Assembly: GCA_964650025.1 (NCBI GenBank)
Contig: CAZYSZ010000002.1
Coordinates: 1 to 31,544 of the forward strand
Direction: 5' to 3'
DNA from: an uncultured Candidatus Saccharibacteria bacterium
GTDB taxonomy: Bacteria > Patescibacteriota > Minisyncoccia > Minisyncoccales > Staskawiczbacteraceae
Length of the DNA: 31,544 bases
The translations under genes were made by a program, and so were the position numbers. The first letter of the stretch is position 1. Each line of letters starts with the position of its first letter. The notes under the pieces are model-generated. The model was not told where the DNA came from, did not search any database, and was given only the letters and a program-made list of their open reading frames with translations. Below are positions 2,676-19,153 of this stretch, piece after piece.

Positions 2676-2714
2676 AGCGACACTAATTTACTAATTACAT
2701 TCGAATCTACTAAT
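2676..2714. repeat. Family D single arm (39 nt)
   Basis: agcgacactaatttactaattacattcgaatctactaat is similar to 12758-12796. Confidence 0.8.
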
Positions 2715-2747
2715 TACTGTAACAAAATTGTCAGCCCAATAAAAGAC

Positions 2748-2813
2748 TTGACGAATAGATTTAGGATATGTATACTTGAAATAAGAATCCGCTCATAACC
2801 CTGCAAAAGGAGG
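2748..2813 (+). promoter_or_regulatory. Sigma70 promoter and SD of an accessory cassette
   Basis: TTGACG (2748)-17 nt-TATACT (2771); AAGGAGG at 2807-2813 before ATG 2818. Confidence 0.75.
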
Positions 2814-2817
2814 CCTT

Positions 2818-3303
2818 ATGCCTAATGCTAGTGAACTTCAGCGGGAACAAGAATCCTTGTCTAATGGAAAAAACTTGATTGGCATCTTGATCTGGTTTGA
2901 GTTTCGTTTTACTGGTCGCCAGATTGTCATTCAACGACAACTGGGTAATCCAAACGATCCGTGGTGGATGTTGGGTGGCGAAATAGACATTCTGCCCAAT
3001 GAGCCAGCGCCTCGTGCTATCAAGCGGAAACTAAAACAAGATTTTGGTTTGGAAATTGACATTTGGTCCATTTCTCAAGATCCAATCCACCAATGCTTGC
3101 ACTCTTGGTGTGAAGGCAGCCTGCCAGCCACAACCGATATATTTTTGGTCAACGTCAATGACAAGGAGTTGGCCATAATATATCGAGTGCTGACTAATCG
3201 TCGGTGCGAGGTCGTAGCTCCTCACGCAGTTAACGTACCTCGAGATGAGCAATATCAACCCGCTCTAAGAGATTGCGCCAGTAAACTTTTTTGGCGCCAC
3301 TAA
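2818..3303 (+). CDS. Nudix-fold-like protein with a degenerate Nudix box
   Basis: WWMLGGEIDILPNEPAPRAIKRKLKQDFGLEI follows the Nudix-box spacing but lacks the REUxEE glutamates; has its own promoter, SD and terminator. Confidence 0.6.
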   Translation: MPNASELQREQESLSNGKNLIGILIWFEFRFTGRQIVIQRQLGNPNDPWWMLGGEIDILPNEPAPRAIKRKLKQDFGLEIDIWSISQDPIHQCLHSWCEGSLPATTDIFLVNVNDKELAIIYRVLTNRRCEVVAPHAVNVPRDEQYQPALRDCASKLFWRH

Positions 3304-3307
3304 TAAC

Positions 3308-3345
3308 AAAAAGCCCACGACGCAACCGCGACGTGGGCATTTTTT
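3308..3345. terminator. Intrinsic terminator of the Nudix-like cassette
   Basis: aaaaa-gcccacg...cgtgggc-atttttt. Confidence 0.75.
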
Positions 3346-3421
3346 ATTCAGAAAAAAATCTATAACGAGTTCTAGGAAAACAAATCTTGATGCAATAACC
3401 CCACAAGTTCGCGCCAGGCGA

Positions 3422-3563
3422 GCCGGTGATGGGAAAAGTAACTCACGCAGGAGAAAAAGCATGGTTTTTCTTGAGTCGCGACTCAAGAAAATTTTTCACC
3501 GAGGTAGTAGGGTGCAAAATCCGGCTGGGGATTTTGACACCCGGTACTTTTCCCATCACTGGC
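3422..3563. other. Multi-stem structured element of unknown class
   Basis: 19-bp closing stem 3422-3440/3545-3563 enclosing a 26-bp perfect palindrome (3466-3491) and a hairpin (3510-3542). Confidence 0.6.
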
Positions 3564-3571
3564 GAAGTACC

Positions 3572-4645
3572 CTACAGGGGCGCGCCCCATTCCTCATCCT
3601 TCTCCATCAAATTTTGCAGGCCTTCGATATTTTCCAGCGCCAATCCGCAACCCCGTACGACTGATGTCAACGGATCATCAATAATTCTACAGGGCATTTT
3701 TGTTTCGTGGGAAATTAAGACATCCAAACCGCACAACAAACTACCTCCGCCGGCCAGATAAATTCCGTTGGTCATTACATCAGCCAAAAGTTCCGGTGGA
3801 GTTTCCTCAATAGTGGTTTTAATGGCAAAAATAATTTGTTTTACGGATCTGTCCAAAGCCCGCTGAATATCATCATTAAACACTACCACCTCTTCGGGCA
3901 AACCCGTCACCAAGTTACGTCCGCGCATGGCAATTTCTTTTCTATCTTTTAATGGCATAGCACTGCCAATATTTATTTTAATCCATTCAGCCGTACGCTC
4001 GCCAATCAATAATTTATATTCTTTTTGCGCAAATTCCACAATATCATTGTTTAATTTGTCTCCCGCTACCCGCAAACTTCGGTAAGCCACAATTCCGCCC
4101 AAAGAAATCACCGCCACCTCCGTTGTTCCTCCGCCGATATCAACAATAAAGTTGCCTCCGGCGTCTTGAATGGGAAGCTTGGCACCAATAGCTGAAGCCA
4201 GCGGTTCTTCAATTAAAAAAACCTGTCTGGCGCCCGCATTTTTTGCCGCGTCGCGCACCGCTTTCCTTTCCACTTCGGTCACTCCGCAAGGAATACCAAT
4301 AATTACCCGCGGCGAATAACCAAAAATCCCGAACTTTCTTTTAGAACCGGCCACCGCTTTTTCAATAAAATATTTGAGCATTTGCTCGGTCACTTCAAAA
4401 TCAGAAATCACGCCATTTACCAAAGGCCGAGTTGCCGTAATATATGAAGGCGTGCGCCCCACCATTTTTTTGGCTTCTTCCCCAATGGCTAAAATTTGGC
4501 CGGTTTTATTATTGACCGCCACCACCGACGGCTCATTGATGATGATTCCCCGGTCTTTGACGTAAACTAAAGAATTGGCCGTCCCCAAGTCAATGGCCAT
4601 ATCCAAGGATAGAAAAGAAAATATTTTTTTGAAAGGATTGTACAT
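3572..4645 (-). CDS. mreB: Rod shape-determining actin-like ATPase MreB (copy 1)
   Basis: AIDLGTAN, EPSVVA, IEEPLASAIGA, VDIGGGTTEVA and LAGGGSLL motifs. Confidence 0.96.
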   Translation of the reverse strand: MYNPFKKIFSFLSLDMAIDLGTANSLVYVKDRGIIINEPSVVAVNNKTGQILAIGEEAKKMVGRTPSYITATRPLVNGVISDFEVTEQMLKYFIEKAVAGSKRKFGIFGYSPRVIIGIPCGVTEVERKAVRDAAKNAGARQVFLIEEPLASAIGAKLPIQDAGGNFIVDIGGGTTEVAVISLGGIVAYRSLRVAGDKLNNDIVEFAQKEYKLLIGERTAEWIKINIGSAMPLKDRKEIAMRGRNLVTGLPEEVVVFNDDIQRALDRSVKQIIFAIKTTIEETPPELLADVMTNGIYLAGGGSLLCGLDVLISHETKMPCRIIDDPLTSVVRGCGLALENIEGLQNLMEKDEEWGAPL

Positions 4646-4782
4646 AAATCAAATTCTAAATTCTAATCTCTAAATTCTAAACAAACTCCAATGCTAAAAA
4701 ATCCAAATTATAAATGTGTTGGTGATTTGAAAATTTGGTATTTGTAATTTGTTTAGAGTTTAGGATTTCGGATTTAGAGTTT
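4646..4782. repeat. Periodic hairpin element, family A-like; overlaps the proS 3' end
   Basis: aaattct/aatctct heptamers; tctaaacaaa pairs with tttgtttaga; centre aaatgtgtt; encodes ProRS C-terminal TLNPKS*. Confidence 0.8.
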
Positions 4783-6010
4783 TCACAATCTGGCTTATCT
4801 TCACCATCTTCACCTTGTCTTTACTTCTTTCCTTAACCTCCACTGAATTTGTGGCCAACGTTCTTTCTGAAATTACCACACGGCAAGGAATTCCCAACAA
4901 ATCACTTTCCGCGAATTTCTCGCCCGGATTTTTATTCTGCCTGTCATCGTATAATACTTCAATGTTTTCTTTTTTCAAGTCCTGATACAATTTTTGCGCC
5001 ACTTTGGCAACCTTGGGATTATTTTCCACTTGGATTACATGCACCGAAAACGGCGCCACGCTTTTTGGCCAAATGATTCCCTTGTCGTCGTGACTGGCTT
5101 CCACAATCGCCCCCAACAATCTGCCAAGTCCAATACCATAACACCCCATAATCACCGGTTTTTCGGTGGCGTCTTTATCGGTGAATTTCAAATTAAATGG
5201 CGTTGAAAATTTTGTTCCGAGTTTGAAAATATTTCCTACTTCAACTGCTTTTTTTTCTTCAAACGCCACGCCTTTGCATTTTGGACATGCTGGGTTTTCT
5301 TCTTTTATTTCTTTATTAATTGCAACACCACACTTTTTGCAAATATAAATAATATCTTCGCCGGCCTGGGTCAGCATTTGGAACTCGTCAGAATACTTTG
5401 AAAAACTTCCGCCTGATGCCAAGGTTTGGTAGGTTATTTTACCAATACCACATTCCTTAAAAATCTTCCCGTAGGCTTTCGCTAATTTTTCGTAATACAC
5501 ATCCAAGTCAGCTTGATTGGCATGGAAAGAATATAAATCTTTCATAAAAAATTCCCGTGTTCTTAAAATTCCGGATTTTGCCCGCAACTCATCCCTGAAT
5601 TTATTTTGGATTTGGAATACATACAACGGCAAGTCTCGGTAGGAAAAAACCATTTTCTTTGCAAGCGGAGCCACTACTTCTTCATGGCTCAAAGCTAACG
5701 CGTAATCTTTATCACCCGATCCCTTTAACTTAAAAAGCACGTCTACCGTATCCCACCGATTGGTTTTTTGCCAATTTTCTTTTGGATTGAGCGAAGGCAT
5801 CAACACTTCCTGCCCACCAACAGCTTCCATATTTTTTCTGATAATAGTTTCAATATTTTTAAGCACCCGATACCCCAGCGGCAAAAATGAATACACTCCC
5901 GACATGAGTTGATCCACATACCCCGCGCGCGTCAGCAAATCATGCGAAACCGAATCTGCCTCCGCTGATTTATTTTTGTTGGTTTTGTAAAAAAGTTTTG
6001 ACTGTAACAT
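4760..6010 (-). CDS. proS: Proline--tRNA ligase, short form without the INS editing domain
   Basis: QIQNKFRDELR motif 2, REFFMKDLYSF, MGCYGIGLGR motif 3 and an anticodon-binding domain; 416 aa. Confidence 0.95.
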   Translation of the reverse strand: MLQSKLFYKTNKNKSAEADSVSHDLLTRAGYVDQLMSGVYSFLPLGYRVLKNIETIIRKNMEAVGGQEVLMPSLNPKENWQKTNRWDTVDVLFKLKGSGDKDYALALSHEEVVAPLAKKMVFSYRDLPLYVFQIQNKFRDELRAKSGILRTREFFMKDLYSFHANQADLDVYYEKLAKAYGKIFKECGIGKITYQTLASGGSFSKYSDEFQMLTQAGEDIIYICKKCGVAINKEIKEENPACPKCKGVAFEEKKAVEVGNIFKLGTKFSTPFNLKFTDKDATEKPVIMGCYGIGLGRLLGAIVEASHDDKGIIWPKSVAPFSVHVIQVENNPKVAKVAQKLYQDLKKENIEVLYDDRQNKNPGEKFAESDLLGIPCRVVISERTLATNSVEVKERSKDKVKMVKISQIVKTLNPKS

Positions 6011-6023
6011 TTTTTATTAGGTT

Positions 6024-6108
6024 CTAGGGACTAGGTACTAGCGTCTAGGGAAACGACGTTGCCGTCCAATCCCTGGACCCTAGTCCCTAGAAGCTAGTCC
6101 CTCGTTTT
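6024..6108. repeat. Periodic hairpin element, family B (CTAG heptamers)
   Basis: 12 units in strict 7-nt register; 77/85 identical to 21131-21215. Confidence 0.93.
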
Positions 6109-7219
6109 AAAGCCCTGCTTTCCAAAAGTCTACCACCCTTGGAATATCAAACCTTATGGTAATGAAAAGCGATAGTAAAATCAAGATGACAAAGCAAATT
6201 ACCGTTAAGGTTTGCTCCCATGTTACCGGCACAGCTTTACCTCGCAGTTTTTCAATGAGTAAAAATACTAATTTTCCGCCATCTAGCGCCGGAATGGGAA
6301 ATAAGTTAAAAATGGCGACTAGAACAGAAATGGAACCGATAAAATATAAAAAGAATCCCGCGCCGTAGCTGGCGGCGTTAGCCAAAAAGATGGTAATTCC
6401 CACTGGGCCGGCGAGCTCCGCTCCACTTGGCACACCTTTACCAGAAAATAAATTAGCAAACACGCCGTAAATTCCTTGCAAGGATTTTACGGTCACCTCC
6501 CAAGTAAACGCCACGCCTTTAAAGGGCGCCATATAAAAAGGAACTTTTTGAATAATGGTGGCTAGACGCTGAAGCTGGACTCCTATGGCGCCCTGGTTGG
6601 CAGAAACACTGGTTCTGGGGCTTAACACCACCTCAATAGTTTTTCCCTGGCGTTGCAGATTTAGGGTTACGGGCTGACCATTATCATTTTTTACAAAATT
6701 CTGAAAATCCGCAACTTTGTCAACGCTAAGGCTTGAATTTTGATTTTTAATATAAACAATAATATCCCCAGCTTTTACGCCGGCAACATCGGCCGGAGAA
6801 TTTTTTTGAACCAACATAACCTGTACGCTAACATCCCCCACACCACCAACTAAATCGTCCACTGGAACTTTTGCTCCAATAGTAAATAATACCGAAAAAA
6901 TAATTATAGCCGCAATCCAAAACGCAATCACTCCACCAAGCACAATTAAAATTCTTTTCCAAATCGCCAAACCCGTAAAGCTTTTGGCGTCGTGCACATC
7001 GCCTTCTTCGCCGTAAATTTTTACAAACGCGCCAAGCCAAATCCAATTGACCGAATAAAACGTATCGCCAAACTGCTTTCCGAACATGCGCGGCGGGTAC
7101 CCAATACCAAATTCTTCCACGCGCACCCCAAAAAATTTCGCAATCACAAAATGCCCAAATTCATGGATGATCATCAGTAAAATCAGAGAGAAAAAGGCAA
7201 TCAATAATGTCAGAAGCAT
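6107..7219 (-). CDS. rseP: RseP-like site-2 (M50) zinc metalloprotease with a PDZ domain
   Basis: HEFGH, VEEFGIG, PDZ SPADVAGVKAGD and NLFPIPALDGG. Confidence 0.93.
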   Translation of the reverse strand: MLLTLLIAFFSLILLMIIHEFGHFVIAKFFGVRVEEFGIGYPPRMFGKQFGDTFYSVNWIWLGAFVKIYGEEGDVHDAKSFTGLAIWKRILIVLGGVIAFWIAAIIIFSVLFTIGAKVPVDDLVGGVGDVSVQVMLVQKNSPADVAGVKAGDIIVYIKNQNSSLSVDKVADFQNFVKNDNGQPVTLNLQRQGKTIEVVLSPRTSVSANQGAIGVQLQRLATIIQKVPFYMAPFKGVAFTWEVTVKSLQGIYGVFANLFSGKGVPSGAELAGPVGITIFLANAASYGAGFFLYFIGSISVLVAIFNLFPIPALDGGKLVFLLIEKLRGKAVPVTWEQTLTVICFVILILLSLFITIRFDIPRVVDFWKAGL

Positions 7220-7229
7220 TTAACAAATG

Positions 7230-7296
7230 AACTCAGGAACATATGAACGAAAGAACGGCGTTGTTCTTAGGTTTTTTAGTTTTTTAGTTCTTTAGT
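7230..7296. repeat. Periodic hairpin element, family E (8-nt units)
   Basis: 58/67 identical to 21622-21688; centre gaacggcgttgttc. Confidence 0.9.
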
Positions 7297-7298
7297 CA

Positions 7299-7853
7299 TT
7301 ACATCAAATCCTTTTCTTTACGTTCCACCAACTCCTTAATCTTTTTTTGATACTCGTCAATCAGTTTTTGCAGTTCATCCTTACCGCGAAATTTGTCGTC
7401 TTCGGAAAGCGCGCCTTCTTTTTCGGCTTTTTGAATTTTATTCCAGCAATCTTCGCGCCAGTGCCGTAGAGTTTGGCGACCTTCTTCAGCTTTGGCATTT
7501 AGCACTTTAACCAAACTTTTTCGGTATTCTTCGGTTAACATCGGCAAGCTTAATCTAATCACATTTTTGTCGACGACCGCAGACATTCCCAAGCCCGACC
7601 CGGCGATTGCCTGTTCAATGGGCTGAATATATGAAGCGTCCCAGGGCGCAATCACAATTTGGTTAGGTTCCGGGCAAGAAATGCTGGCCAGTTGGTTTAA
7701 CGTAAAAACGCTGTCAAAGGCTTTGACCTGGACGTCTTCTACCATGGAAGGCGTCGCCCGCGAGGTACGGACTTTATCCAACTCTTTAAGCAAAAATGAA
7801 TATGATTTTTCGAACTCGGGCTTGACTTTATCGATGAATTCTTTGAGACTCAT
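7299..7853 (-). CDS. frr: Ribosome recycling factor (start revised to MSLKEF)
   Basis: RTSRATPS, IAPWD, LTEEYRK and EDDKFR motifs; the upstream 7 codons of the ORF call lie in repeat family C. Confidence 0.95.
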   Translation of the reverse strand: MSLKEFIDKVKPEFEKSYSFLLKELDKVRTSRATPSMVEDVQVKAFDSVFTLNQLASISCPEPNQIVIAPWDASYIQPIEQAIAGSGLGMSAVVDKNVIRLSLPMLTEEYRKSLVKVLNAKAEEGRQTLRHWREDCWNKIQKAEKEGALSEDDKFRGKDELQKLIDEYQKKIKELVERKEKDLM

Positions 7854-7934
7854 GAAGCATGGATCATGAAACATGAAACACGAAACAACGACGTCGGCGT
7901 TTGCTTCATGCTCTATGCTTCATGCTTTATGATT
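7851..7934. repeat. Periodic hairpin element, family C (CATG heptamers)
   Basis: catgaag catggat catgaaa catgaaa cacgaaa ... catgctc tatgctt catgctt; related to 19917-19992. Confidence 0.88.
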
Positions 7935-8839
7935 TATATTTCTAATAACAACACCTCCAACGCCAACTTGGCGCTGGCGTTGGTTTGTGAAATTTGCGCG
8001 TGCAAGGTTTCGATTAACCGAATAATATTTTTTAATTTTTCCAGCGTATACGCATTAGTAGATTCGGATGTCATTTGTAGATTGGTGTCGCTATTTATTC
8101 CTAATTTTATTAAAAGCAAATTCCTAAAATATCTCTGTAACACTTTTAAAATCACATCGGCGTTATCCCCCTCCAAGTTAACTTTTTTGGTATAGCCGAA
8201 TTTTTGCGCCAGCTCGCCCTGGATAATCGGCAACAATTCCTGCAACATTTTTTTATCCTGCACAGAAGCCTGATATTTTTCTTTAGGCAAAAACGTCAAA
8301 TATTGGCATCGGGAAAAAATCGTGGGCAGTAAATAATCTGGTTTTGAGGATAATAAGATAATCAACGTGTCGCCTTTGGGTTCTTCCAGGGTTTTTAAAA
8401 AACTGTTTTGGGCTTCCGTATTCATGCGCTCCGCGTTTTCAATCATCACCGCTTTATACTTTCCATAATAAGATTTAAAACTTAAAAAATAATTCACTTG
8501 CCGAATCTGCGCCACATCAATTTCCATCATATCCTTTTCATTTTTCACTGATGAATCGCTATTGATAGACTTTACCACCAACAAATCCGGAAAGGTTTCT
8601 TGGTTAATAAATTTACAACTTTGACACTCATTACAACCATTTTTAAAAGTACCATAAATCTGACGGCCGTCACTTTTATGGGACGCTTGGCAATTGATAA
8701 ATTTTACAAACTCTTTCGTAAACTCCTTTTTCCCCACCCCGTCCTGCCCCGAAAATAAATAAGCATGAGAAAGTTGCCCCGCCAAAAATTTCCCCCGCAA
8801 AAATTCCCAGTTTTTTTCGTGATTAATTTTTTCACTCAT
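7934..8839 (-). CDS. holB: DNA polymerase III delta-prime subunit (clamp loader)
   Basis: HAYLFSGQDGVGK, Cys cluster CQ...CNECQSC, AERMNTEAQNSFLKTLEEP and LLPTIFSRC. Confidence 0.9.
   Translation of the reverse strand: MSEKINHEKNWEFLRGKFLAGQLSHAYLFSGQDGVGKKEFTKEFVKFINCQASHKSDGRQIYGTFKNGCNECQSCKFINQETFPDLLVVKSINSDSSVKNEKDMMEIDVAQIRQVNYFLSFKSYYGKYKAVMIENAERMNTEAQNSFLKTLEEPKGDTLIILLSSKPDYLLPTIFSRCQYLTFLPKEKYQASVQDKKMLQELLPIIQGELAQKFGYTKKVNLEGDNADVILKVLQRYFRNLLLIKLGINSDTNLQMTSESTNAYTLEKLKNIIRLIETLHAQISQTNASAKLALEVLLLEI
8054..8092. repeat. Family D arm in frame inside holB
   Basis: attagtagattcggatgtcatttgtagattggtgtcgct is 34/39 identical to 10321-10359; encodes SDTNLQMTSESTN. Confidence 0.9.
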
Positions 8840-9731
8840 CTTCTTTTAAAAGTTTTCTGCCAACCCATGTATCAAATGTGCCAACCTTAGATAAGTTATA
8901 GAAAACATACGAAGACCCGCCTTTCATCTCTTTACTCTCTCCGCCTTCATTATAGATTAAACCGTCAAATCCTTTTTCCATGAGAAAATATGAAAAGAGA
9001 TCTGGGAACGGCCCCCCAGAAGGAAATTTATTCTCATCTTCAATATACGGGAAAAAATCATTATGGCCCCCGTCCTGTAATAATTGTCTTAAATCTACTT
9101 TTTGGGCATCCAAACATCTATCAAGATGCTGTATATAATCCGGCATCCAATCGCGGTCAAACTCGCCTGAATTTTTCATCTCTTCGTTTACTAACGACCC
9201 TTCTGTTTCAAGCCACTTAATAAATTTCTTTTTCCATTCCAGAATCAACTCTCTTGGCACGGGTGCGTTGGCATTTTGTTCACTTTTATCCCGAAAGTCA
9301 AACATTCTTGCCTGATAGGGATGTATTTTCTCCACTATGGCAGGAGTATTGTCGCCTGGATTTTGCTTTTGCCCATTAGCATAATATGTTCTAACTTTAC
9401 TATAAAGCCTTGCTTCAGATTCTTTATCAGTCACATAAAAACCCGACCCTAAATTTTGGGGCGTATCACCATAGTGATCATAATTTCCTTTTTCATCCAT
9501 CTTGCGTCGGTGGCGCCGGTAATAGTCCATGTTATCCTGAAAATCTATTTTTCTGTGAGTGCCATGAAAAAGCAGATCCGGCGAATTTTCAAAATCCTCC
9601 AAAGTCATTTCCGACGGATCTTTTTCGCCAAGAACCCTAAGCCCCACCGCCTCTCTAATTTCAGACTGCTCCTTTTCTAGTTGAGACTCTTCCGGCAAAT
9701 CCCGACTATTTTGTATTTCACCTTCCGCCAT
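8832..9731 (-). CDS. Putative ADP-ribosyltransferase-fold protein (ART-PolyVal-like)
   Basis: LFHGT ... GSGFYVT...ARLYS ... GFDGLIY ... YVFYN pattern recognised by eye; stop overlaps the holB start (ATGAGTGA). Confidence 0.55.
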   Translation of the reverse strand: MAEGEIQNSRDLPEESQLEKEQSEIREAVGLRVLGEKDPSEMTLEDFENSPDLLFHGTHRKIDFQDNMDYYRRHRRKMDEKGNYDHYGDTPQNLGSGFYVTDKESEARLYSKVRTYYANGQKQNPGDNTPAIVEKIHPYQARMFDFRDKSEQNANAPVPRELILEWKKKFIKWLETEGSLVNEEMKNSGEFDRDWMPDYIQHLDRCLDAQKVDLRQLLQDGGHNDFFPYIEDENKFPSGGPFPDLFSYFLMEKGFDGLIYNEGGESKEMKGGSSYVFYNLSKVGTFDTWVGRKLLKEDE

Positions 9732-10236: not shown

Positions 10237-10253
10237 CTTACACACCATTACTT

Positions 10254-10287
10254 AGATTGCCGCGTCGCTTCGGCTCCTCGCAATGAC
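10254..10287. repeat. Half copy of a widespread palindromic repeat type (GAGATTGC...CTCGCAATGAC; RPE/REP-like)
   Basis: agattgccgcgtcgcttcggctcctcgcaatgac; family assignment from recall, single copy in the window. Confidence 0.55.
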
Positions 10288-10288
10288 G

Positions 10289-10320
10289 AAAAAAGGCGCG
10301 CCCGCGGGCGCGCCTTTTTT
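10289..10320. terminator. 32-bp perfect palindrome, likely the mreB2 terminator
   Basis: aaaaaaggcgcgcccg|cgggcgcgcctttttt. Confidence 0.75.
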
Positions 10321-10359
10321 ATTCGTAGATTCGAATGTGATTAGTAGATTGGTGTCGCC
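10321..10359. repeat. Family D single arm
   Basis: 37/39 identical to the reverse complement of 12758-12796; abuts the mreB2 stop. Confidence 0.9.
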
Positions 10360-12757: not shown

Positions 12758-12849
12758 AGCGACACCAATCTACTAATCACATCCGAATCTACGAATTTCA
12801 CATCGTTTTTATTAGCAGATTCGCATGTTATTCGTATATTAGGGTCGCT
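12758..12849. repeat. Family D full two-arm hairpin in the predicted murA 5' leader
   Basis: AGCGAC...GTCGCT termini; 39-nt arms at 12758-12796 and 12811-12849. Confidence 0.9.
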
Positions 12850-12864
12850 ATTGATTACTCAATA

Positions 12865-12926: not shown

Positions 12927-12992
12927 TTGACCAGGAAGTCTTGAGTGTTTCAGGACTGATTGTTGACAATTCGCCCAATTGGAGATTGTTTC

Positions 12993-13520
12993 ATGGGTAA
13001 AGCATTGGCGACGACTGGTGTTTTTGGCATTCCGGCCAAAATTGTCGATGGAAAGGTGCGCATCAAGGTGAATGTGCGTACCGATCAAGAGAAACAAAAA
13101 GATACCGCAAAACTACCGAAAGACTCCACGGTCTTACTCGTTGACTGCCCGGGCGGAGGACGTCAAAACAAAGAAACCAAGGGAGATGCGCTCCGACGCG
13201 AAATCTTCGAAGAAACCGGCGGATGCACCATCACACTGACGGGCAATTTTTCGCCCGATCCCGATCTGGACCTGATCAAAGACGGCACTACGGAAAGTCC
13301 CGATGATTACGCCTTCTGGGCGCCTATCGTTTTGCATGGCGACCCAAAACCATCCAATGAAGCACTGGATCACCCCTGGGTTTCCCGAGAAGAATTGGAA
13401 ACCGCCACCAAGTACCGCGCTGTTTCCGGCCTGGGACTGAAAGGCCGGACCGGTCGCATGATGGTTGCCGCCCTGGACTTCTACGAGGCCAACAAAGACA
13501 AACCTGAACTGTTTTCGTAA
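12993..13520 (+). CDS. Nudix hydrolase (start revised to the ATG after GGAG)
   Basis: Intact box PGGGRQNKETKGDALRREIFEETGG. Confidence 0.85.
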   Translation: MGKALATTGVFGIPAKIVDGKVRIKVNVRTDQEKQKDTAKLPKDSTVLLVDCPGGGRQNKETKGDALRREIFEETGGCTITLTGNFSPDPDLDLIKDGTTESPDDYAFWAPIVLHGDPKPSNEALDHPWVSREELETATKYRAVSGLGLKGRTGRMMVAALDFYEANKDKPELFS

Positions 13521-13528
13521 CCCAATCC

Positions 13529-13562
13529 GGCCACGTGAAGTTTTGCAAAACTTCACGTGGCC
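13529..13562. other. 34-bp perfect palindrome between the Nudix and DUF218 genes
   Basis: ggccacgtgaagttttg|caaaacttcacgtggcc followed by attttttt. Confidence 0.85.
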
Positions 13563-13586
13563 ATTTTTTTCAAAAAGGAGACTCTC

Positions 13587-14339
13587 GTGCAAAAGCTGAA
13601 TTGCCTTATTGTGGTGGGCTCGCGCATTGGTTTAAACGAGCAAAACCAAATGGTTTGCGCAAAGCACACCGAAATGAAAGCCCATGCTGCCGGTATCGCC
13701 TGGCAGGAAAAGCTGACAGAAAAATTCCTGTTCACAGGTGGGCATTGCATTGGCGTACGTTATGCTCGCGATCTTTCCGTGCCTACGTTCGGTTCACCCG
13801 AATCGACCCTCCAGGCTAATTATTCCGAGACCGCGAAAATGCTGGCACACTGGCACCGCTCCGAAGCCAGCGTGATGGCCGAACTGGTGCGTAAGGACTA
13901 CGCCGTTCCGCCATACGCCATCGTACTGGAAGAAGATTCCGAAACCACCGCCCAAAACGCCGAATTTTGCAGAGACATTATCTGTGGAATGTTTGGTGAA
14001 AAACCCGATGGCATTAGCGTTGGCATCCTCTCCCTGCTCTACCATATGCAACGGGCAATGCAAGAATTCTGCACTGCTTTCGCCAGCATCGCCAACCTGG
14101 AAAATATCCAGCCGGTCTTTGCCGAAGAAATTCTGGCGATGTCGGACTTTAAGCAGTACGAACGTGTGCCGATGCACACCATGGACGATTTTCCTGTTCT
14201 TTCTAACATTGACCATATCTGCAAGTACTACTCAACGCCCAAAGGCGGCAACCAGTACGACACAGATCGCATTCGGAAGCTTCTGGTCGATGGCAAGTCT
14301 CTCGAAGAACTGATGCAACCCGACAAACCTACTCATTAA
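13587..14339 (+). CDS. DUF218 (YdcF/ElyC/SanA-like) protein (GTG start after AAAGGAG)
   Basis: LIVVGS, LFTGG, EASVMAE, LEEDSETTAQNAEF and YHMQRA motifs. Confidence 0.8.
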   Translation: MQKLNCLIVVGSRIGLNEQNQMVCAKHTEMKAHAAGIAWQEKLTEKFLFTGGHCIGVRYARDLSVPTFGSPESTLQANYSETAKMLAHWHRSEASVMAELVRKDYAVPPYAIVLEEDSETTAQNAEFCRDIICGMFGEKPDGISVGILSLLYHMQRAMQEFCTAFASIANLENIQPVFAEEILAMSDFKQYERVPMHTMDDFPVLSNIDHICKYYSTPKGGNQYDTDRIRKLLVDGKSLEELMQPDKPTH

Positions 14340-14393
14340 AAAGTAGTACAAAAAGTAAACGTTTGCAATTTGTTCTACTTTTTACCAACAATG

Positions 14394-14433
14394 AAAAAGC
14401 CCCGCGATCGTAAAAGATCGGGGGCTTGTTTTT
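14394..14433. terminator. Bidirectional terminator between convergent accessory genes
   Basis: aaaaagccccgcgatc...gatcgggggcttgttttt. Confidence 0.75.
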
Positions 14434-15156
14434 TTACTTGGCAAAGTCATGTTTTGGAACCCAGCCAAACGGATTTGACCAAGCGTGGACTCTGCCGGTG
14501 TTATTTGAAACACCGTTAACGATGCAAAAATTTTCCGGAACCGACGGCGCGTCGATGCAGGCATTAATCAAGCTGGCGCAATCTTGGGTATGCAACCAGA
14601 TTTTTTCGGCCAGCGGTTCTTCGCGGAGCTGATTGTCAAGTGTCACTCCGCCAAAGCGGATACAGATGACTTCCAGTCCATACTTGGTAGCGCAATAATA
14701 TCTACCGAGAGCTTCGACGTATAGTTTGCTGACACCATACAAACTGTCGGGAACGGGATTCCCCTGATTGGGCGAAAGACCAAATGGAGTTTGCGGTTTG
14801 TAAAACCGCGCATCCGCGTGAATTGAGCTGGCCATGATCAACCGCGGAACCTTAGCTTCAACTGCCGCCCGATAAACGTTTTCGGCCATCAACTTATTTT
14901 CGGGCGCAACCCTGTCGGATTTCCAGTTTTCCACGCGAGTGTTCCAGCCAAGGTGAATGACCGCATCCTTGTTTTGCAGATGCTGTTTTAATCCATCGTA
15001 ATCATTGGCAACGTCAAGGTTAAACACCTTCTTGCCAATTTGGTTTGGCATGACACAATCCAAAAAAGTGAAGGAAAACACTTCCCTCAATTCCATAAAA
15101 ATAACACTCGCAATACTGCCACTACCGCCAGTAACTACCACAAACTTTCTTTTCAT
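14434..15156 (-). CDS. NAD-dependent epimerase/dehydratase (extended SDR)
   Basis: VVTGGSG glycine motif, ASS, YGVSK (YxxxK) and IRFG; SD AAGGAG upstream. Confidence 0.88.
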   Translation of the reverse strand: MKRKFVVVTGGSGSIASVIFMELREVFSFTFLDCVMPNQIGKKVFNLDVANDYDGLKQHLQNKDAVIHLGWNTRVENWKSDRVAPENKLMAENVYRAAVEAKVPRLIMASSIHADARFYKPQTPFGLSPNQGNPVPDSLYGVSKLYVEALGRYYCATKYGLEVICIRFGGVTLDNQLREEPLAEKIWLHTQDCASLINACIDAPSVPENFCIVNGVSNNTGRVHAWSNPFGWVPKHDFAK

Positions 15157-15207
15157 GACTTCTCCTTGTTTTGAAAGTAATAACCGCTTATAATACTAGT
15201 ATAAAAT

Positions 15208-15885
15208 ATGAGAAAATTCAACCTATTAGTCAGCATCACCGGGCGGACTCCGCAGGAGTGGCAGGATAAATTACAGGAAATTGTAAATCTTAACATAAAG
15301 GAGGTAGCTTTGTTTTTGGAGTTTTATAAACCTGCTGAAAAGCAGAAAATTTATGATGCGCTATTGCACTCCCCCATCAAAAAAATTCCATTGGTGCATT
15401 TGCGACATGACATGAAAAAGGACGAACTGGCATTTTTACAAAAAAACTTTGGAACCAAATACTTTACCTGCCATGAAGAAAATTTTGCGCGCCATGATGT
15501 CCAGCACTGGAAAGGGTTTTATAAAGACATTTATTTGGAAATGAATTTTGATAACTTTGTTTCTAAAACTGTAAAAGTGGAAAACATCGGCGGATTCTGT
15601 GTTGATCTGGCGCATTTTAAGGTGGGGTTGGAAAAGTTATCCAAAGATTTTAAATATGTTTTTGACCGCAAGGGTAAAAAGCTGTTCACCTGCAACCACC
15701 TTAATGGCTGGAATTCAGAAAAAAATGTTGACATGCATACCATAAAAAATCCGGCCGATTTTGACTACCTAAAAACCCTCCCTGATTTTGTTTTTGGAAA
15801 ATATATTGCACTGGAAACATTTAATTCTATTAAGGAACAATTGGAGTTTAAAAGGTATCTTGCAATGATGTTAAAGGAAAAATAA
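15208..15885 (+). CDS. Hypothetical protein, possible xylose-isomerase-like TIM barrel
   Basis: 225 aa; candidate metal ligands in YLEM, VDLAHF, NHLNG and IALE. Confidence 0.5.
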   Translation: MRKFNLLVSITGRTPQEWQDKLQEIVNLNIKEVALFLEFYKPAEKQKIYDALLHSPIKKIPLVHLRHDMKKDELAFLQKNFGTKYFTCHEENFARHDVQHWKGFYKDIYLEMNFDNFVSKTVKVENIGGFCVDLAHFKVGLEKLSKDFKYVFDRKGKKLFTCNHLNGWNSEKNVDMHTIKNPADFDYLKTLPDFVFGKYIALETFNSIKEQLEFKRYLAMMLKEK

Positions 15886-15923
15886 TTCGTAAAATTACGC
15901 GTTACGGATTATGTTTTAGCCCA

Positions 15924-15952
15924 TTGAAATATGGCTGTTTTTTTGCTAGGAT
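15924..15952 (+). promoter_or_regulatory. Leaderless-type promoter
   Basis: TTGAAA-17-TAGGAT with extended TG; ATG at 15959, 6 nt downstream. Confidence 0.6.
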
Positions 15953-15958
15953 GTGGGC

Positions 15959-17065
15959 ATGACTATTAAGACCCGCCTTATCATTCTTGGCATTTTTGCC
16001 GTCGTATTTTTGGTGGCGGCGCCGTATTTGGTACTGTATTCCCTGGGTTACCGGGTGGATTTTAGGCACGCCAGCATTGTCGCTACCGGGGGAATTTATA
16101 TTAAAGCCTACCCGCCGGAGGCAACCGTGGCCGTTGACGGTAAAATAAAAGACACCACGGGTATATTTTCTAGTTCGTTTTTTGTGCAAAATCTTCTGCC
16201 TCAAACCCATGCAATTTTAATTTCCAAAGACGGCTACTATGATTACCAAAAAAATCTTTTAGTGGCGCAAAACCAAGTAACCAAATTAGAGCATGTGATT
16301 TTATTTAAAAAAGATATCGGTTTTAGCCTGGTTAAGGCAACAGCAAAACTTCCAGCGGCACCAAAAACGGCTGCTGATGCTTATGTGCTAAAAAACAATA
16401 ATATATACTTGGCGCCCGCCGATAACTTAGCGCAACCGCAAGTAAAGATGCCACTTATTGAAAATGTGATTACCTACACCGCACTTAATGGCAACATATT
16501 TTATCTGGGAACCAACGGATTTTTCTACCAACACAACCTTGCCGCCAACCAAGCCACCGCCCTGACAACCAAAGCTTTTATCGTAAATAAAAAAAATGCC
16601 TACAGCATTATTGCCACGCCGCAAACCATTTTTCTACAGGAAAACACCAACGTACTTTCACTCAATAAAACCACCGGTACTTTTGAAACATTTTTTAACC
16701 CGGTAACCAAAATAATCGTTTCACCCGACCAACAAAACATCCTTTTTTATAACGACCACCAAATTTTTATTGCCGCCGCCAACACTTTAAAGCCAATAGC
16801 CTTAAACGAATTAGAACAAAAAATAAGTGACTTATACTGGCTCAACAACGATTACATTATCTACAACGCCGGTGGCAATATGAGTATTTCTGAAATTGAT
16901 ACCCGGGGAAATATAAACACCATTGCCTTGCCCGCCACCGTTTCATTAACCGACGGCACCAGCCTGATTATAAAAAGTCCGCAAATCTATTTTAATCAGC
17001 AAGACAAAAAATTATATGTTTTGATGACTAACACCCTTTTAGTTTCTGAAAGATTAGTACCATAA
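15959..17065 (+). CDS. Membrane-anchored PEGA-domain-like protein with a beta-rich C-terminus
   Basis: N-terminal TM helix, GGIYIKAYPPEATVAVDG, NLLPQTHAILISKDGYYDYQK; start moved to ATG 15959. Confidence 0.75.
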   Translation: MTIKTRLIILGIFAVVFLVAAPYLVLYSLGYRVDFRHASIVATGGIYIKAYPPEATVAVDGKIKDTTGIFSSSFFVQNLLPQTHAILISKDGYYDYQKNLLVAQNQVTKLEHVILFKKDIGFSLVKATAKLPAAPKTAADAYVLKNNNIYLAPADNLAQPQVKMPLIENVITYTALNGNIFYLGTNGFFYQHNLAANQATALTTKAFIVNKKNAYSIIATPQTIFLQENTNVLSLNKTTGTFETFFNPVTKIIVSPDQQNILFYNDHQIFIAAANTLKPIALNELEQKISDLYWLNNDYIIYNAGGNMSISEIDTRGNINTIALPATVSLTDGTSLIIKSPQIYFNQQDKKLYVLMTNTLLVSERLVP

Positions 17066-17113
17066 AAATCGTTTGTTTTTTACCATTACCTGTTCTTTTT
17101 TAGGAGGTGCATT

Positions 17114-17596
17114 ATGCACACACTCAGCAAAAAAACCTGCGAAGTTGTGGACTTTGCCAATGACGAGGCCGCAAACTTCGGCCATGATTTTGTTGACACC
17201 AGCCACATCTTGGCCGGCATACTAAGGCAAAGCCAAAGTGCCACGTACGCGGCACTCACAGAACTTGGCATATTACTGCCTGCTGTTCGAGCAAAGATTG
17301 CCCTGGTTTGGGAGCGAGGCCAAAACTTCTCAAAAGAAGTCTCTCGAAAGCCAACCGCGTGGCTTACCCAGGTTTTTGATCGCGCTGGCATAGAAGCCCA
17401 AAACCTGGATGACCCCACCATCTGCCCTGTTCACCTGGTGCTTGCCATGCTACGCTTGGAAAAATACCGTGGATACGGCAATGTCTTAGTGCACCTTGGC
17501 TCCCATGCTCACCAGATCAAAGAAAAAATCACAACAAGGTGGTTAGAAAAAAAGGAAAAGAAAACCAAACTGCCAATCCTTAATTTTTCTATATAA
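17114..17596 (+). CDS. Stand-alone Clp N-terminal (Clp_N repeat) domain protein
   Basis: EAANFGHDFVDTSHILAGI and EAQNLDDPTICPVHLVLAML repeats; SD AGGAGG; no AAA+ domain. Confidence 0.75.
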   Translation: MHTLSKKTCEVVDFANDEAANFGHDFVDTSHILAGILRQSQSATYAALTELGILLPAVRAKIALVWERGQNFSKEVSRKPTAWLTQVFDRAGIEAQNLDDPTICPVHLVLAMLRLEKYRGYGNVLVHLGSHAHQIKEKITTRWLEKKEKKTKLPILNFSI

Positions 17597-17601
17597 CCAC
17601 C

Positions 17602-17640
17602 AAAGGCCGCTTTGCTTTAAGAATTCAAGGCGGCCTTTTT
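17602..17640. terminator. Intrinsic terminator after the Clp_N gene
   Basis: aaaggccgc...gcggccttttt. Confidence 0.7.
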
Positions 17641-17648
17641 ATGTATAA

Positions 17649-17676
17649 AAAAATACACCCCAACGGGTGTATTTTT
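17649..17676. terminator. Intrinsic terminator after rpsI
   Basis: aaaaatacaccc caac gggtgtattttt. Confidence 0.75.
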
Positions 17677-17680
17677 CTTG

Positions 17681-18238
17681 TTATCGTTTCGCCCACTGCG
17701 GGGATTTTCGGGCTCTTTTTAATCCAAACTTCTTTCGTTCTCGCATTCTTGGGTCTCTGGTTAAATATCCGGCTTTGCGTAATCGTTTTCTGAAATTATT
17801 GTTAAAGTCCACTAACACTCGGGCGGTTCCGTGTCGCACGGCTTCGGCTTGGGCGTTTCGGCCTCCGCCTTTGACAATCACGGTAACCTTAAACTTATCC
17901 AAGCATTTCATTTTTCGCATGGATGCCACAGATGTTTCCTGGTCACCCTTTAAAGAAAAATATTGCTGATAATCCTTTCCGTTAATTAAGAATTGTTTGT
18001 CGCCACGGGTAAATAGACGCACTCGGGCAGTGGCGGTTTTACGCCTGCCAACCGCCTCAAAATAACGGTCAGGTTTTGATGCCAGTTCTTTTTCGGTTGG
18101 GAAGTCTTCGGGTAAAATATCATCCAGCTCTTCCACCTTAACTACTATGGACGGTTTTACCACTGGTTCTATTTTTTTTACTGACGGCTTTTCCTTTACC
18201 GCCGGAACTACTTTTTTTATTTTTTCAACAGCCATCAT
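17681..18238 (-). CDS. rpsI: 30S ribosomal protein S9 with an N-terminal extension
   Basis: AVGRRKTATARV, GGG-AQAEAVRHG and TRDPRMRERKKFGLKRARKSPQWAKR. Confidence 0.97.
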   Translation of the reverse strand: MMAVEKIKKVVPAVKEKPSVKKIEPVVKPSIVVKVEELDDILPEDFPTEKELASKPDRYFEAVGRRKTATARVRLFTRGDKQFLINGKDYQQYFSLKGDQETSVASMRKMKCLDKFKVTVIVKGGGRNAQAEAVRHGTARVLVDFNNNFRKRLRKAGYLTRDPRMRERKKFGLKRARKSPQWAKR

Positions 18239-18600
18239 TATTTGGTAAACTTTAATCTTTTAATTTGTTTTGCCCGTAATTTATTTTTAGTTAACATGCC
18301 CATCACCGCTTTTCTAAAAATTTCCTGCGGGCCTTTTTTTAGATACACTTCTTTCATCGTGGCCTTTTTCAATCCCCCAAGATACAAGGTGTGATGGTAG
18401 TAAATTTTATCTTGGAATTTTTTTCCGGTATATTTTATCCCTTCCACATTTTTTACGGTCACAAAGTCACCGATATCTTTGTAGGGCGCAAACCCCACCT
18501 TACTTTTCCCACGCAACAAAACCGCCACTTCGGTAGCTAATCTACCCAATACTTTTCCAGTTGCGTCCACGATAATGTTTTCTCGCTTGATAACTTCCAT
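18238..18600 (-). CDS. rplM: 50S ribosomal protein L13
   Basis: VDATGKVLGRLAT, GDFV, KIYYHHT and GML; overlaps the rpsI start. Confidence 0.96.
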   Translation of the reverse strand: MEVIKRENIIVDATGKVLGRLATEVAVLLRGKSKVGFAPYKDIGDFVTVKNVEGIKYTGKKFQDKIYYHHTLYLGGLKKATMKEVYLKKGPQEIFRKAVMGMLTKNKLRAKQIKRLKFTK

Positions 18601-18618
18601 AGCTTTTACTTCGTAAAA

Positions 18619-18710
18619 GAAATTCGAATATCGAAATACGAAACATGTTTTGAATTTTAGATTTTGGAAATTTGAATTTGTTTCGGATTTCGGATTTCGT
18701 GCTTCGGATT
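18619..18710. repeat. Periodic hairpin element, family A-like (TTCGGAT units)
   Basis: ttcgaat atcgaaa tacgaaa ... ttcggat ttcggat ttcgtgc ttcggat; contains aaacatgttt. Confidence 0.8.
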
Positions 18711-19060
18711 TACTTTACCAACTCAATTATCGTCATACTTGCCCCATCCGATTTTCGTGGTCCCATTTTAATCATTCTAGTATATCCACCTTGTCTTGCA
18801 GTATATTCGGGCGCAATAGTATTAAATAAATTTTTTACGGTTTTAGGGGACAATTCTTTGGCTAAAATCCTCCGGTTAGCGACGGTATTATTTTTAGCTC
18901 GAGTAATCATTTTTTCAGCGACGGATCGTAGTTCTTTAGCTTTAGCCTCGGTGGTCTGAATTTTACCATGTAAAAAAAGGCTAGTTGCTAATGTTCTTAG
19001 CAATGCTACTCTTTGGCTTTTTGGCCTGGATAATATTCTGCCTTTATTTCTTTTTCGCAT
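18710..19060 (-). CDS. rplQ: 50S ribosomal protein L17
   Basis: LSR...RVALLR, HGKIQTTEAKAKELR and RQGGYTR. Confidence 0.97.
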   Translation of the reverse strand: MRKRNKGRILSRPKSQRVALLRTLATSLFLHGKIQTTEAKAKELRSVAEKMITRAKNNTVANRRILAKELSPKTVKNLFNTIAPEYTARQGGYTRMIKMGPRKSDGASMTIIELVK

Positions 19061-19070
19061 CGCTTCGCTA

Positions 19071-19153
19071 GGCGACCCTAATCTACAAATCTCACACTAA
19101 TCTACGAATACGTTATTGGTAGATTAGAATGTCATTAGTAAATTGGTGTCGCT
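19071..19153. repeat. Family D full hairpin; its terminus supplies the rpoA stop codon
   Basis: ggcgaccctaatctac...gtaaattggtgtcgct; arms at 19071-19109 and 19115-19153. Confidence 0.88.

What the first reader, a model, noticed from the sequence alone, without database searches (positions are those of the whole stretch)
2676..19153. Family D: a 39-nt arm with AGCGAC terminus, present as solo arms and full hairpins (MITE-like)
Seen: seven arms at five loci, consensus near AGCGACACCAATCTACTAATCACATCCGAATCTACGAAT. Full two-arm forms are at 12758-12849 and 19071-19153; solo arms are at 2676, 8054 and 10321. The fixed length and sharp terminus differ from the looser heptamer families. No target-site duplication was evident. 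Inference: a non-autonomous mobile element whose mobiliser lies outside the window.
Basis: partly seen in the sequence, partly recalled or inferred. Interest (0 to 1): 0.68.

Follow-up and report, generated by a model that had tools for sequence, protein, structure and literature searches.

The report
Orphan hairpin copies of nuclease cassette
A 39-base repeat that forms hairpins between the genes of this ultra-small (Parcubacteria) bacterium is the gene-less form of a small DNA cassette that in sister species carries a nuclease gene of unknown function, which gives that widespread gene family a testable role.

Summary
In detail: seven arms at five loci, at the stated coordinates, with none expected by chance. 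The whole 720 kb genome holds 40 arms at 26 loci.

Full copies are 80-125 nt hairpins with sharp RGCGAC...GTCGCY ends and no target-site duplication. They fill the spacer between a stop codon (0-8 nt before one end) and the next start codon (1-15 nt after the other).

In seven sister species the same two arms bracket a ~130-aa GxxExxY / PDDEXK_3 nuclease gene, whose ATG lies inside one arm. The hairpins keep both arm types, in the same polarity. They are therefore gene-less, MITE-like derivatives of that cassette.

Comparative evidence for mobility:
- The cassette sits at four or more different junctions.
- The holA|rpsT site is filled in five species and empty in three.
- The rpoA|rplQ site is empty in 11 of 25 species.

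This genome has the most arms found but no GxxExxY gene, so its copies are orphans. No movement was seen within the population, and the enzyme's role is inferred.

RAYT, DDE-transposase, terminator and selected-RNA-structure readings were tested and not supported. This scan has noted GxxExxY cassettes before on other DNA. I found no published description.

The parts
2676..2714 (+). Solo arm without the ATG box (T at arm position 21). It lies in the divergent spacer, with its head 6 nt from the gatC start codon on the other strand.
8054..8092 (-). Solo arm of the ATG-bearing type, translated in frame (SDTNLQMTSESTN) inside holB, in a loop whose length varies across the genus. G016 holB carries a related in-frame arm at the same place.
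10321..10359 (-). Solo arm without the ATG box, directly after the mreB stop codon (TAA). Together with the adjacent terminator it has the layout of the 3' end of a full cassette.
10289..10320 (-). Canonical intrinsic terminator (G+C stem plus T run) abutting the inner end of the arm at 10321-10359. The same arm-plus-terminator layout occurs at C11:14401 and C55 and at the 3' end of full cassettes.
12758..12849 (-). Full two-arm hairpin (92 nt, -33 kcal/mol), ending 8 nt upstream of the GTG start of the EPSP-synthase-family (murA-like) gene.
19071..19153 (-). Full two-arm hairpin (83 nt, -32.5 kcal/mol) filling the rpoA|rplQ junction. The rpoA stop codon TAG overlaps the AG of the head.
19058..19070 (-). 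Recurrent 13-nt tail (TAGCGAAGCG + ATG on the minus strand) that contains the rplQ start codon. The same tail follows D copies at C46 and, with small changes, at C24 and in four other species.

Best explanation
Family D is the gene-less foldback form of a small palindromic DNA cassette.

The full form occurs in sister species. It consists of an ATG-bearing arm, a ~130-aa GxxExxY (PDDEXK_3, PD-(D/E)XK-fold) nuclease gene, a small terminator hairpin, and a second arm without the ATG.

Each 39-nt arm is a terminal box (RGCGAC) followed by AAT-containing boxes at positions 10, 18, 29 and 37. I infer, but have not shown, that these phased boxes are protein-binding sites, as in transposon ends with several subterminal sites, and that the cassette's nuclease acts on them.

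Copies with or without the gene were spread by a copy-and-paste or homing-like process. They landed in the few bases between a stop codon and the next start codon, usually in the sense orientation. The cassette gene therefore rides on host operon transcription and starts 20 nt after the host stop.

The two arms fold on each other. A hairpin copy thus brings the upstream stop and the downstream start back together, which I infer is why such insertions are tolerated in ribosomal and replication operons.

This genome holds 26 loci but no nuclease gene, so its copies are most likely orphans that no longer move.

Shown: shared arms, arm polarity, positions relative to genes, empty and filled orthologous sites, and co-clustering of nuclease clades with arm families.
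Inferred: that the nuclease is the mobilising enzyme, the way of moving, and the effect on translation.
For: - Arms in seven species. D-type arms bracket a PF13366/TIGR04256 gene in G002, G003, G010, G011, G020, G021 and G041. The D hairpins were the only large G000 family whose matches lay next to these genes in many species (7 loci); family A matched beside one locus and a single-copy family beside three.
- Start codon in the arm. The gene starts at the ATG in the arm (M-T-x-E-S/F-T-N...).
- Two arm types. In 22 hairpins the two arms of one element are less alike than randomly paired arms (653 identities against 692 +/- 7.6). This shows two conserved arm types, which match the 5' and 3' arms of the cassette.
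- Orientation. The ATG-type arm is on the stop-codon side in 17 of 20 informative hairpins.
- Position. 24 of 36 full elements from many species have a stop codon at most 14 nt before one end and a start at most 17 nt after the other.
- holA|rpsT junction. It holds the cassette in G002, G011, G013, G020 and G021. In G003, G010 and G041 it holds only a terminator, and those three carry the cassette elsewhere.
- rpoA|rplQ junction. It is empty in 11 of 25 species.
- Copy number. Exact-pattern hits range from 0 to 28 per genome within the genus.
- Nuclease tree. Arm-family labels need only the minimum of 10 changes, against a shuffled mean of 18.6. D-type nucleases with their cousins form a clade with 100/99 support.
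- Active site and fold. D76, (D/E)86 and K88 are conserved (D76 and K88 invariant) in 22 genus members. The model has pLDDT 86 and a PD-(D/E)XK fold.
- Flanking repeats. 27 of 30 GxxExxY loci have flanking inverted repeats above the maximum seen in 22 control loci.
Against: - G000 has the most D arms (28 exact-pattern hits) but no GxxExxY gene. Either spread did not need the gene, the gene was lost later, or it lies in the unassembled ~6%.
- There is no target-site duplication and no shared target motif.
- Three metagenomes hold the same strain with identical D loci and no empty allele.
- 27 of 38 arm positions are at least 95% conserved across species, even in orphan copies. This could mean host-level selection rather than recent copying.
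- A small PD-(D/E)XK nuclease alone is not a known transposase. The fold search is unspecific: Cas4 / lambda-exonuclease-like at TM about 0.5, with Hjc and T7 endonuclease I only weak.
- It is open whether the gene was lost from cassettes or gained by hairpins.
- Arm-family labels in the tree were assigned by eye, and related genomes share labels.
Confidence: 0.6

Rival explanations
1. Nuclease-target repeats rather than a mobile element. As with Ssn nucleases and their NTS repeats in Neisseria, the GxxExxY nuclease would be a host or domesticated enzyme, and the D arms its dispersed recognition sites (for example acting on incoming or single-stranded DNA). The gene being flanked by its own sites would be a regulatory or historical feature.
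For: Ssn genes are flanked on both sides by their repeats in 42% of homologues, and those repeats occur in hundreds of copies (PMC11893778). The motif boxes of D arms are conserved across species. No movement was seen within the population.
Against: - G000 keeps 26 loci without any nuclease gene.
- The whole gene-plus-arms unit changes junction between species, leaving sites with only a terminator.
- Hairpins keep both arm types as one unit, which fits copying of a unit better than scattered sites.
Confidence: 0.15
2. REPIN-RAYT system. The D doublets and singlets would be mobilised by one of the four IS200-like Y1 (RAYT-like) transposases of this genome.
For: There are four PF01797 genes with HUH and Y motifs in a 720 kb genome. 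The pattern of doublets and singlets resembles REPINs and REPs. GTAG occurs in the arms.
Against: - None of the four genes is flanked by D arms. Each has its own G+C-rich inverted repeats.
- Only 2 of 30 transposase loci checked (29 Y1 loci across the genus plus the rve locus) have a D head within 1.5 kb, both at the margin.
- G011 and G022 have D copies but no Y1 gene.
- The arms are not self-palindromic REPs.
Confidence: 0.07
3. Host RNA elements. The hairpins would be selected intercistronic RNA structures (RNase III processing sites, 3'-end stabilisers or attenuators, as in phage T7 early mRNA), and their spread would be secondary.
For: They lie exactly between cistrons, are necessarily co-transcribed, fold at -26 to -57 kcal/mol, and show an orientation bias relative to the genes.
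Against: - Sense and antisense strands fold equally well (-37.4 against -37.9 kcal/mol) and have equal G-U counts.
- At variable positions the arms are anti-correlated, not compensatory.
- At position 9 the sense strand mostly has C-A rather than G-U.
- No T run follows the 3' arm, and canonical terminators sit beside some copies.
- There is no Rfam match.
- Many species lack any insert at the same junction.
Confidence: 0.1

Closest known systems
REPIN / REP elements with their RAYT gene (PMC3116915, PMC3337134, PMC3733652)
   Same: - Hairpin doublets occur alongside decayed singlets.
- A low-copy gene is flanked by the same repeats and is inherited at a fixed locus in several species.
- There is no target-site duplication.
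- Copies lie after coding regions, and a few lie inside replication or repair genes. PMC3733652 notes the same for REPs.
   Different: - The partner gene is a PD-(D/E)XK nuclease, not an HUH Y1 transposase.
- Each arm is an array of phased direct boxes, not a short G+C-rich palindrome with a GTAG or CGTC tag.
- The Y1 genes of this genome are not associated with D arms.
MITEs derived from insertion sequences (e.g. Correia elements of Neisseria)
   Same: - Small and non-coding, with sharp inverted ends.
- Many copies that are co-transcribed with neighbouring genes.
- A longer gene-bearing relative has the same ends.
   Different: No target-site duplication, no transposase of any known family with these ends, and the whole element is one long foldback.
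Ssn GIY-YIG nucleases and their NTS/SRM repeats (PMC11893778)
   Same: A small nuclease gene is framed by hairpin-forming repeats that are also dispersed in many copies around other genes.
   Different: A different nuclease fold (PD-(D/E)XK). The arms are 39 nt with phased boxes. The gene's start codon lies inside an arm. Activity is untested.
Rickettsia palindromic elements
   Same: Repeat-derived segments are translated in frame inside essential genes (holB and dnaG here; recG with the full cassette in five relatives).
   Different: Unrelated sequence. Here only one arm, or the whole nuclease cassette, is in frame, and most copies are intergenic.
Transposon ends with several subterminal binding sites (Mu, Tn7; my own knowledge)
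   Same: A terminal box is followed by repeated short boxes at roughly helical spacing, mirrored at both ends, and the two ends differ slightly.
   Different: No transposase, no duplication of the target, and total length under 130 nt.

Membership tests
IS-derived MITE | Terminal inverted repeats and small non-coding body | tested here: met
   Arms of 39 nt, elements of 80-125 nt, no ORF
IS-derived MITE | Target-site duplication of fixed length | tested here: not met
   The flanks of 14 full copies share no direct repeat. The occasional TAA or TAAG matches are explained by stop codons.
IS-derived MITE | Parent element with a transposase and the same ends | tested here: not met
   No hits for DDE_3, DDE_Tnp_1, IS110 or TnpB. 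The one rve gene has unrelated 15-nt inverted repeats. The gene-bearing relative carries a nuclease, not a known transposase.
REP/REPIN-RAYT | RAYT (Y1 HUH transposase) gene flanked by the repeat | tested here: not met
   0 of 4 in G000. 2 of 30 transposase loci checked (29 Y1 loci in the genus plus the rve locus) have a head within 1.5 kb, at the locus margin.
REP/REPIN-RAYT | Each REP is a short imperfect palindrome with an unpaired GTAG or CGTC tag | tested here: not met
   The arms consist of direct phased boxes and are not self-complementary. The terminal box is GCGAC.
REP/REPIN-RAYT | Inverted doublets that form a hairpin, plus singlets | tested here: met
   About 15 full hairpins and about 11 single or truncated arms in G000
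GxxExxY repeat-armed cassette (class noted earlier by this scan, not found in print) | PF13366/TIGR04256 gene between inverted arms of the same repeat | tested here: met
   Seven species have D arms on one or both sides. This is not met in G000 itself, which has no such gene.
GxxExxY repeat-armed cassette (class noted earlier by this scan, not found in print) | Arms built of phased short units; gene-less foldback copies outnumber the gene | tested here: met
   AAT boxes at positions 10, 18, 29 and 37. G000 has 26 gene-less loci and the relatives have 1-8 pattern hits.
GxxExxY repeat-armed cassette (class noted earlier by this scan, not found in print) | The nuclease acts on its own arms | not testable with these tools
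   Needs biochemistry. Only the fold and the conserved D...(D/E)xK residues were checked.
Ssn / NTS system | GIY-YIG nuclease | tested here: not met
   Pfam and NCBIfam give PDDEXK_3 / GxxExxY only.
Intrinsic terminator | G+C-rich stem followed by a T run | tested here: not met
   The stems are A+T-rich with fixed internal loops, and no T run follows the 3' arm. Separate canonical terminators lie beside or inside some copies.

The most novel reading that the evidence does not exclude
GxxExxY (PDDEXK_3) genes with their phased-repeat arms are a distinct, undescribed class of small mobile element. Its nuclease recognises the arm boxes and drives copying of both gene-bearing and gene-less foldbacks into stop/start junctions, and in frame into replication and repair genes. 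Family D would be a MITE-like population of one lineage, left orphaned in this genome after loss of the nuclease.
Probability: 0.3. Interest if true: 0.8.

Novelty: new variant of a known kind. Interest (0 to 1): 0.6.

Why it matters
GxxExxY / PDDEXK_3 is a very common small nuclease family listed as 'unknown' (PMC3424549). I found no paper linking it to repeats.

This case offers several things together:
- A gene-less repeat family.
- Its gene-bearing form in sister species.
- Filled and empty orthologous sites.
- A start codon built into one arm.
- A nuclease tree that follows the arm families.

That combination gives a concrete, testable substrate for the enzyme.

The case also shows that a 720 kb streamlined CPR genome tolerates dozens of 80-125 nt inserts inside ribosomal-protein and replication operons, and even in frame inside holB and dnaG. 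This bears on how such reduced genomes are shaped and on why their assemblies fragment.

Tried and rejected
- Target-site duplication: flanks of all copies were aligned and nothing consistent was found.
- Transposases: no DDE_3, DDE_Tnp_1, IS110 or TnpB. The one rve gene has unrelated ends.
- RAYT link: four Y1 genes are present, but each has its own G+C-rich repeats and none is next to D arms.
- Selected RNA structure: there is no sense/antisense difference in energy or G-U pairs, and the arms are anti-correlated rather than compensatory. There is no Rfam or tRNA match.
- Shine-Dalgarno idea: the GGTG/GGGG near the 3' end lies 11-15 nt from the start codon, which is too far. Dropped on reading the sequences.
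- GCGAAGC tail as a general start-codon signal: the motif is common and not tied to start codons genome-wide. The 16S 3' end was not found in the assembly.
- Population polymorphism: contigs of three metagenomes span three D loci with no differences. There was no empty allele and no RNA run.
- Extending the nuclease link to all hairpin families of G000: only D, and weakly two others, match arms next to GxxExxY genes in the genus.
- Finer assignment of the nuclease: Foldseek gives Cas4 / lambda-exonuclease-like hits at TM about 0.5. The profile hits to T7 endonuclease I are weak (E 0.002-0.1). Neither is specific.
- Global pattern scan: about 70 chance hits were expected by my own estimate. Hits in non-CPR genomes lack the rest of the arm and are chance.
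Full report
**Observation**

It matches 8054-8092 and 10321-10359 (minus strand) within three mismatches, against 0.00 expected in shuffles. The repeat finder recovers all seven arms at the five stated loci (sequences).

The window is contig C2 of a 720 kb, 87-contig assembly that is 93.6% complete. In the whole assembly I count 40 arms (up to 10 mismatches) at 26 loci, and none in five shuffled genomes. Mean pairwise identity is 82%. Record titles of relatives that hold the same repeat name the group as Candidatus Staskawiczbacteria / Patescibacteria.

**Anatomy**

- Full copies are 80-125 nt. They consist of two 39-nt arms around a 4-47 nt loop and fold at -26 to -57 kcal/mol.
- The ends are sharp: RGCGAC on one side and GTCGCY on the other. 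The flanks share no direct repeat.
- Of 38 arm positions, 27 are at least 95% conserved in 44 arms from nine or more species. Seven positions (7, 9, 17, 21, 26, 28, 36) vary freely.
- The conserved blocks place an AAT box at positions 10, 18, 29 and 37.

**Position relative to genes**

In G000, 11 of 14 full copies lie between co-directional genes. The upstream stop codon starts 1-10 nt before the head, sometimes as TAG overlapping the AG of AGCGAC. The next start codon lies 6-12 nt after the other end.

Over 36 full elements from G000 and other species, 24 have both a stop at most 14 nt upstream and a start at most 17 nt downstream.

In the window:
- The 19071-19153 copy fills rpoA|rplQ.
- The 12758-12849 copy ends 8 nt before the murA-like start.
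- The 10321 arm abuts the mreB stop and is followed by a canonical terminator.
- The 2676 arm lies 6 nt from the gatC start.

Some copies share a 3' tail that includes the start codon. TAGCGAAGCG-ATG occurs at rpoA|rplQ and at C46, with variants at C24 and in four other species. TAAGAAA-ATG occurs at C11 and C26.

**Distribution and empty sites**

The 19-nt head pattern occurs in 12 of 24 other species of the genus (1-8 hits each, against 28 in G000). It occurs in none of 16 genomes from other families of the order.

A scan of 185,579 species found the head, followed by related CGAAT-periodic arms, in other Parcubacteria lineages too (Taylorbacteria, Harrisonbacteria and others). Hits in unrelated phyla lack the rest of the arm and are at the number expected by chance.

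At the orthologous rpoA|rplQ junction of 25 species:
- 11 have a spacer of -17 to 23 nt.
- 14 have inserts of 69-228 nt, mostly hairpins of unrelated sequence.
- Two of those (G014, G007) have a D-like cousin with the same tail.

**Search for a mobiliser**

- G000 has no DDE_3, DDE_Tnp_1, IS110 or TnpB gene. Its one rve gene has 15-nt inverted repeats unrelated to D.
- It has four IS200-like Y1 genes with HUH and Y motifs. Each is framed by its own G+C-rich repeats, and none by D arms.
- Of 30 transposase loci checked (29 Y1 loci across the genus plus the rve locus), only 2 have a D head within 1.5 kb.

The REPIN-RAYT reading fails its defining test.

**The link to a nuclease gene**

Three genomes had two D heads in inverted orientation about 450-500 bp apart. 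In the two that I read, they bracket homologous ORFs of 129-132 aa. These match PF13366 PDDEXK_3 (E 1e-20 to 1e-21) and TIGR04256 GxxExxY.

The genus holds 33 such matches in 17 of 25 other genomes. Reading their flanks shows the following:
- 27 of 30 have flanking inverted repeats longer than the maximum seen in 22 control loci.
- The arm families differ from locus to locus.
- Seven loci in seven species carry D-type arms.

In these the ORF starts at the ATG inside one arm (M-T-x-E-S/F-T-N...). A small terminator hairpin precedes the other arm. I reached this before consulting earlier notes of the scan.

**Polarity of the hairpins**

In 22 hairpins the two arms of one element are less alike than randomly paired arms: 653 identities against 692 +/- 7.6, and no shuffle was as low. 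Each hairpin therefore keeps two distinct arm types.

The types differ at position 21. A G gives the ATG, or there is another purine, in one type, and C/T in the other. This is the difference between the 5' and 3' arms of the gene-bearing cassette.

The ATG-type arm is on the stop-codon side in 12 of 13 informative G000 copies and 5 of 7 from other species (my reading). The hairpins thus have the orientation that a co-transcribed cassette gene would have.

**Comparative evidence for movement**

- The convergent holA|rpsT junction holds the D-armed cassette, flush with both stop codons, in G002, G011, G013, G020 and G021.
- In G003, G010 and G041 the same junction holds only a terminator of about 45 nt. 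Those three species carry a D-armed cassette at three other junctions.
- In G000 that junction holds a HEPN/nucleotidyltransferase pair instead.

In a tree of 27 genus nucleases, the arm-family labels need the minimum of 10 changes, against a shuffled mean of 18.6. The D-type proteins with two cousins form a clade with 100/99 support. The G003 copy, at a different junction, nests among the holA|rpsT copies. Two caveats apply: I assigned the labels by eye, and related genomes share labels.

**The nuclease**

Across 22 genus members, D76, (D/E)86 and K88 of the PD-(D/E)XK motif are conserved (D76 and K88 invariant), and so is the G...E..Y motif. The model (pLDDT 86, pTM 0.80) matches Cas4 and lambda-exonuclease-type structures at TM about 0.5, with Hjc-type resolvases lower. 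Profile hits to T7 endonuclease I are weak (E 0.002-0.1). The fold is confirmed. The activity is not assigned.

**This genome is an orphan case**

No PF13366 match and no tblastn match to a D-type nuclease exist in G000, although it has the most D arms found. Contigs of three metagenomes carry the same strain with identical D loci and no empty allele. No RNA run was available. Movement within the population is therefore not shown, and dependence on the nuclease is an inference.

**RNA-level tests**

- Sense and antisense strands fold equally well (-37.4 against -37.9 kcal/mol) and have equal G-U counts.
- Variable positions show no compensation.
- No T run follows the 3' arm.
- There is no Rfam match.

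The hairpins are certainly co-transcribed. I infer that folding brings stop and start together and makes the insert tolerable. I see no evidence that the structure itself is under selection.

**In-frame arms**

The 8054 arm encodes SDTNLQMTSESTN in a loop of HolB that varies from 0 to about 27 residues in the genus. G016 has a related arm there (SDPNLRIHPNNPN).

A second arm is in frame inside dnaG (C18:9392-9430, GDTNLRMTRESTN). In five relatives the whole cassette, with arms of another family, is in frame inside an open reading frame of about 880 aa that contains a DEQHRFG motif (RecG-like by my knowledge; not scanned against Pfam). PMC3733652 reports REPs inside replication and repair genes.

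**Comparison and novelty**

The closest described systems are:
- REPIN-RAYT (same population structure, different enzyme and repeat design).
- IS-derived MITEs (no duplication or transposase here).
- Ssn nucleases framed by their NTS repeats (different fold; PMC11893778).

PDDEXK_3 is listed as of unknown function (PMC3424549). A full-text search for the family names found no paper on repeats.

Earlier notes of this scan describe GxxExxY cassettes with repeat-array ends, gene-less foldbacks and in-frame copies on other genomes. Later checks there priced the 'new selfish element' reading at 8-28%. My data add filled and empty orthologous sites, the arm polarity and an orphan population. They do not add proof of movement or of the enzyme's action.

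**Limits**

- Gene calls are ORF-based.
- The orientation counts and arm-family labels are my own readings.
- Species in one genus are not independent.
- The assembly is fragmented at repeats.

Noticed in passing
G000 contigs C11:10390-11079, C4:6499-7293, C6:12-713, C26:4043-4759 (L036-L039): Four IS200-like Y1 (RAYT-like) genes of 225-265 aa with HUH and Y motifs in a 720 kb genome. Each is framed by its own short G+C-rich inverted repeats, and some of these repeats also lie inside the ORFs. None is associated with D arms.
   Followed up: partly
L156, L158-L161 (G011, G014, G013, G015, G021): A GxxExxY domain with CGCAGA-type periodic arms is inserted in frame inside an open reading frame of about 880 aa carrying a DEQHRFG motif (RecG-like by my knowledge). 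The five inserts form one clade with 100/98 support.
   Followed up: partly
G000 C18:9392-9430 (minus strand): A D arm is translated in frame (GDTNLRMTRESTN) inside a 638-aa open reading frame whose sequence reads as DnaG primase (CPFHSEKRPSF zinc-finger motif). I did not scan it against Pfam. This is a second intragenic arm besides the one in holB.
   Followed up: partly
window 19152-19946 and L012-L035: RpoA comes in two length classes in the genus: about 265-275 aa, as here (264 aa), and about 313-321 aa. The short class has no room for a full C-terminal domain. All six empty junctions with a 6-23 nt or -1 spacer go with the long class, while the five with overlapping (-17) genes have the short class.
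   Followed up: no
G000 C4:8294-9288: The holA|rpsT junction holds the D-armed nuclease cassette in five relatives. In G000 it holds a HEPN-like ORF (136 aa) and a nucleotidyltransferase-like ORF (110 aa), followed by another long hairpin and a terminator.
   Followed up: no
whole G000 assembly: My inverted-repeat scan found 126 hairpins of at least 24 paired bases, in ten or more families. The largest has 49 copies and contains a TATAAT-like box. Family D is third with 14. Several other dispersed repeats of about 50 nt occur in 10-20 copies, and one lies at window 10250-10290.
   Followed up: partly
window 19058-19070; G000 C46, C24; L018, L020, L083, L090: A recurrent tail ...AGCGAAGCG-ATG follows D copies at unrelated junctions and in other species. 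It contains GCGAAGC, which by my knowledge forms an unusually stable DNA mini-hairpin. The motif is not otherwise tied to start codons in this genome.
   Followed up: partly
G000 C6:2022-2060 and C18:1563-1601: Hybrid arms: a D-type head (GCGATCCCAATCTAC) is joined to inner units of another family (ATCCGAAT repeats). This suggests recombination between families.
   Followed up: no
G000 C43:2540-3841 (L129:1054-2355, minus strand): A single rve-domain gene (433 aa) with perfect 15-nt inverted repeats (AAAGGACCCTGAAAT) is the only DDE-type element found.
   Followed up: partly
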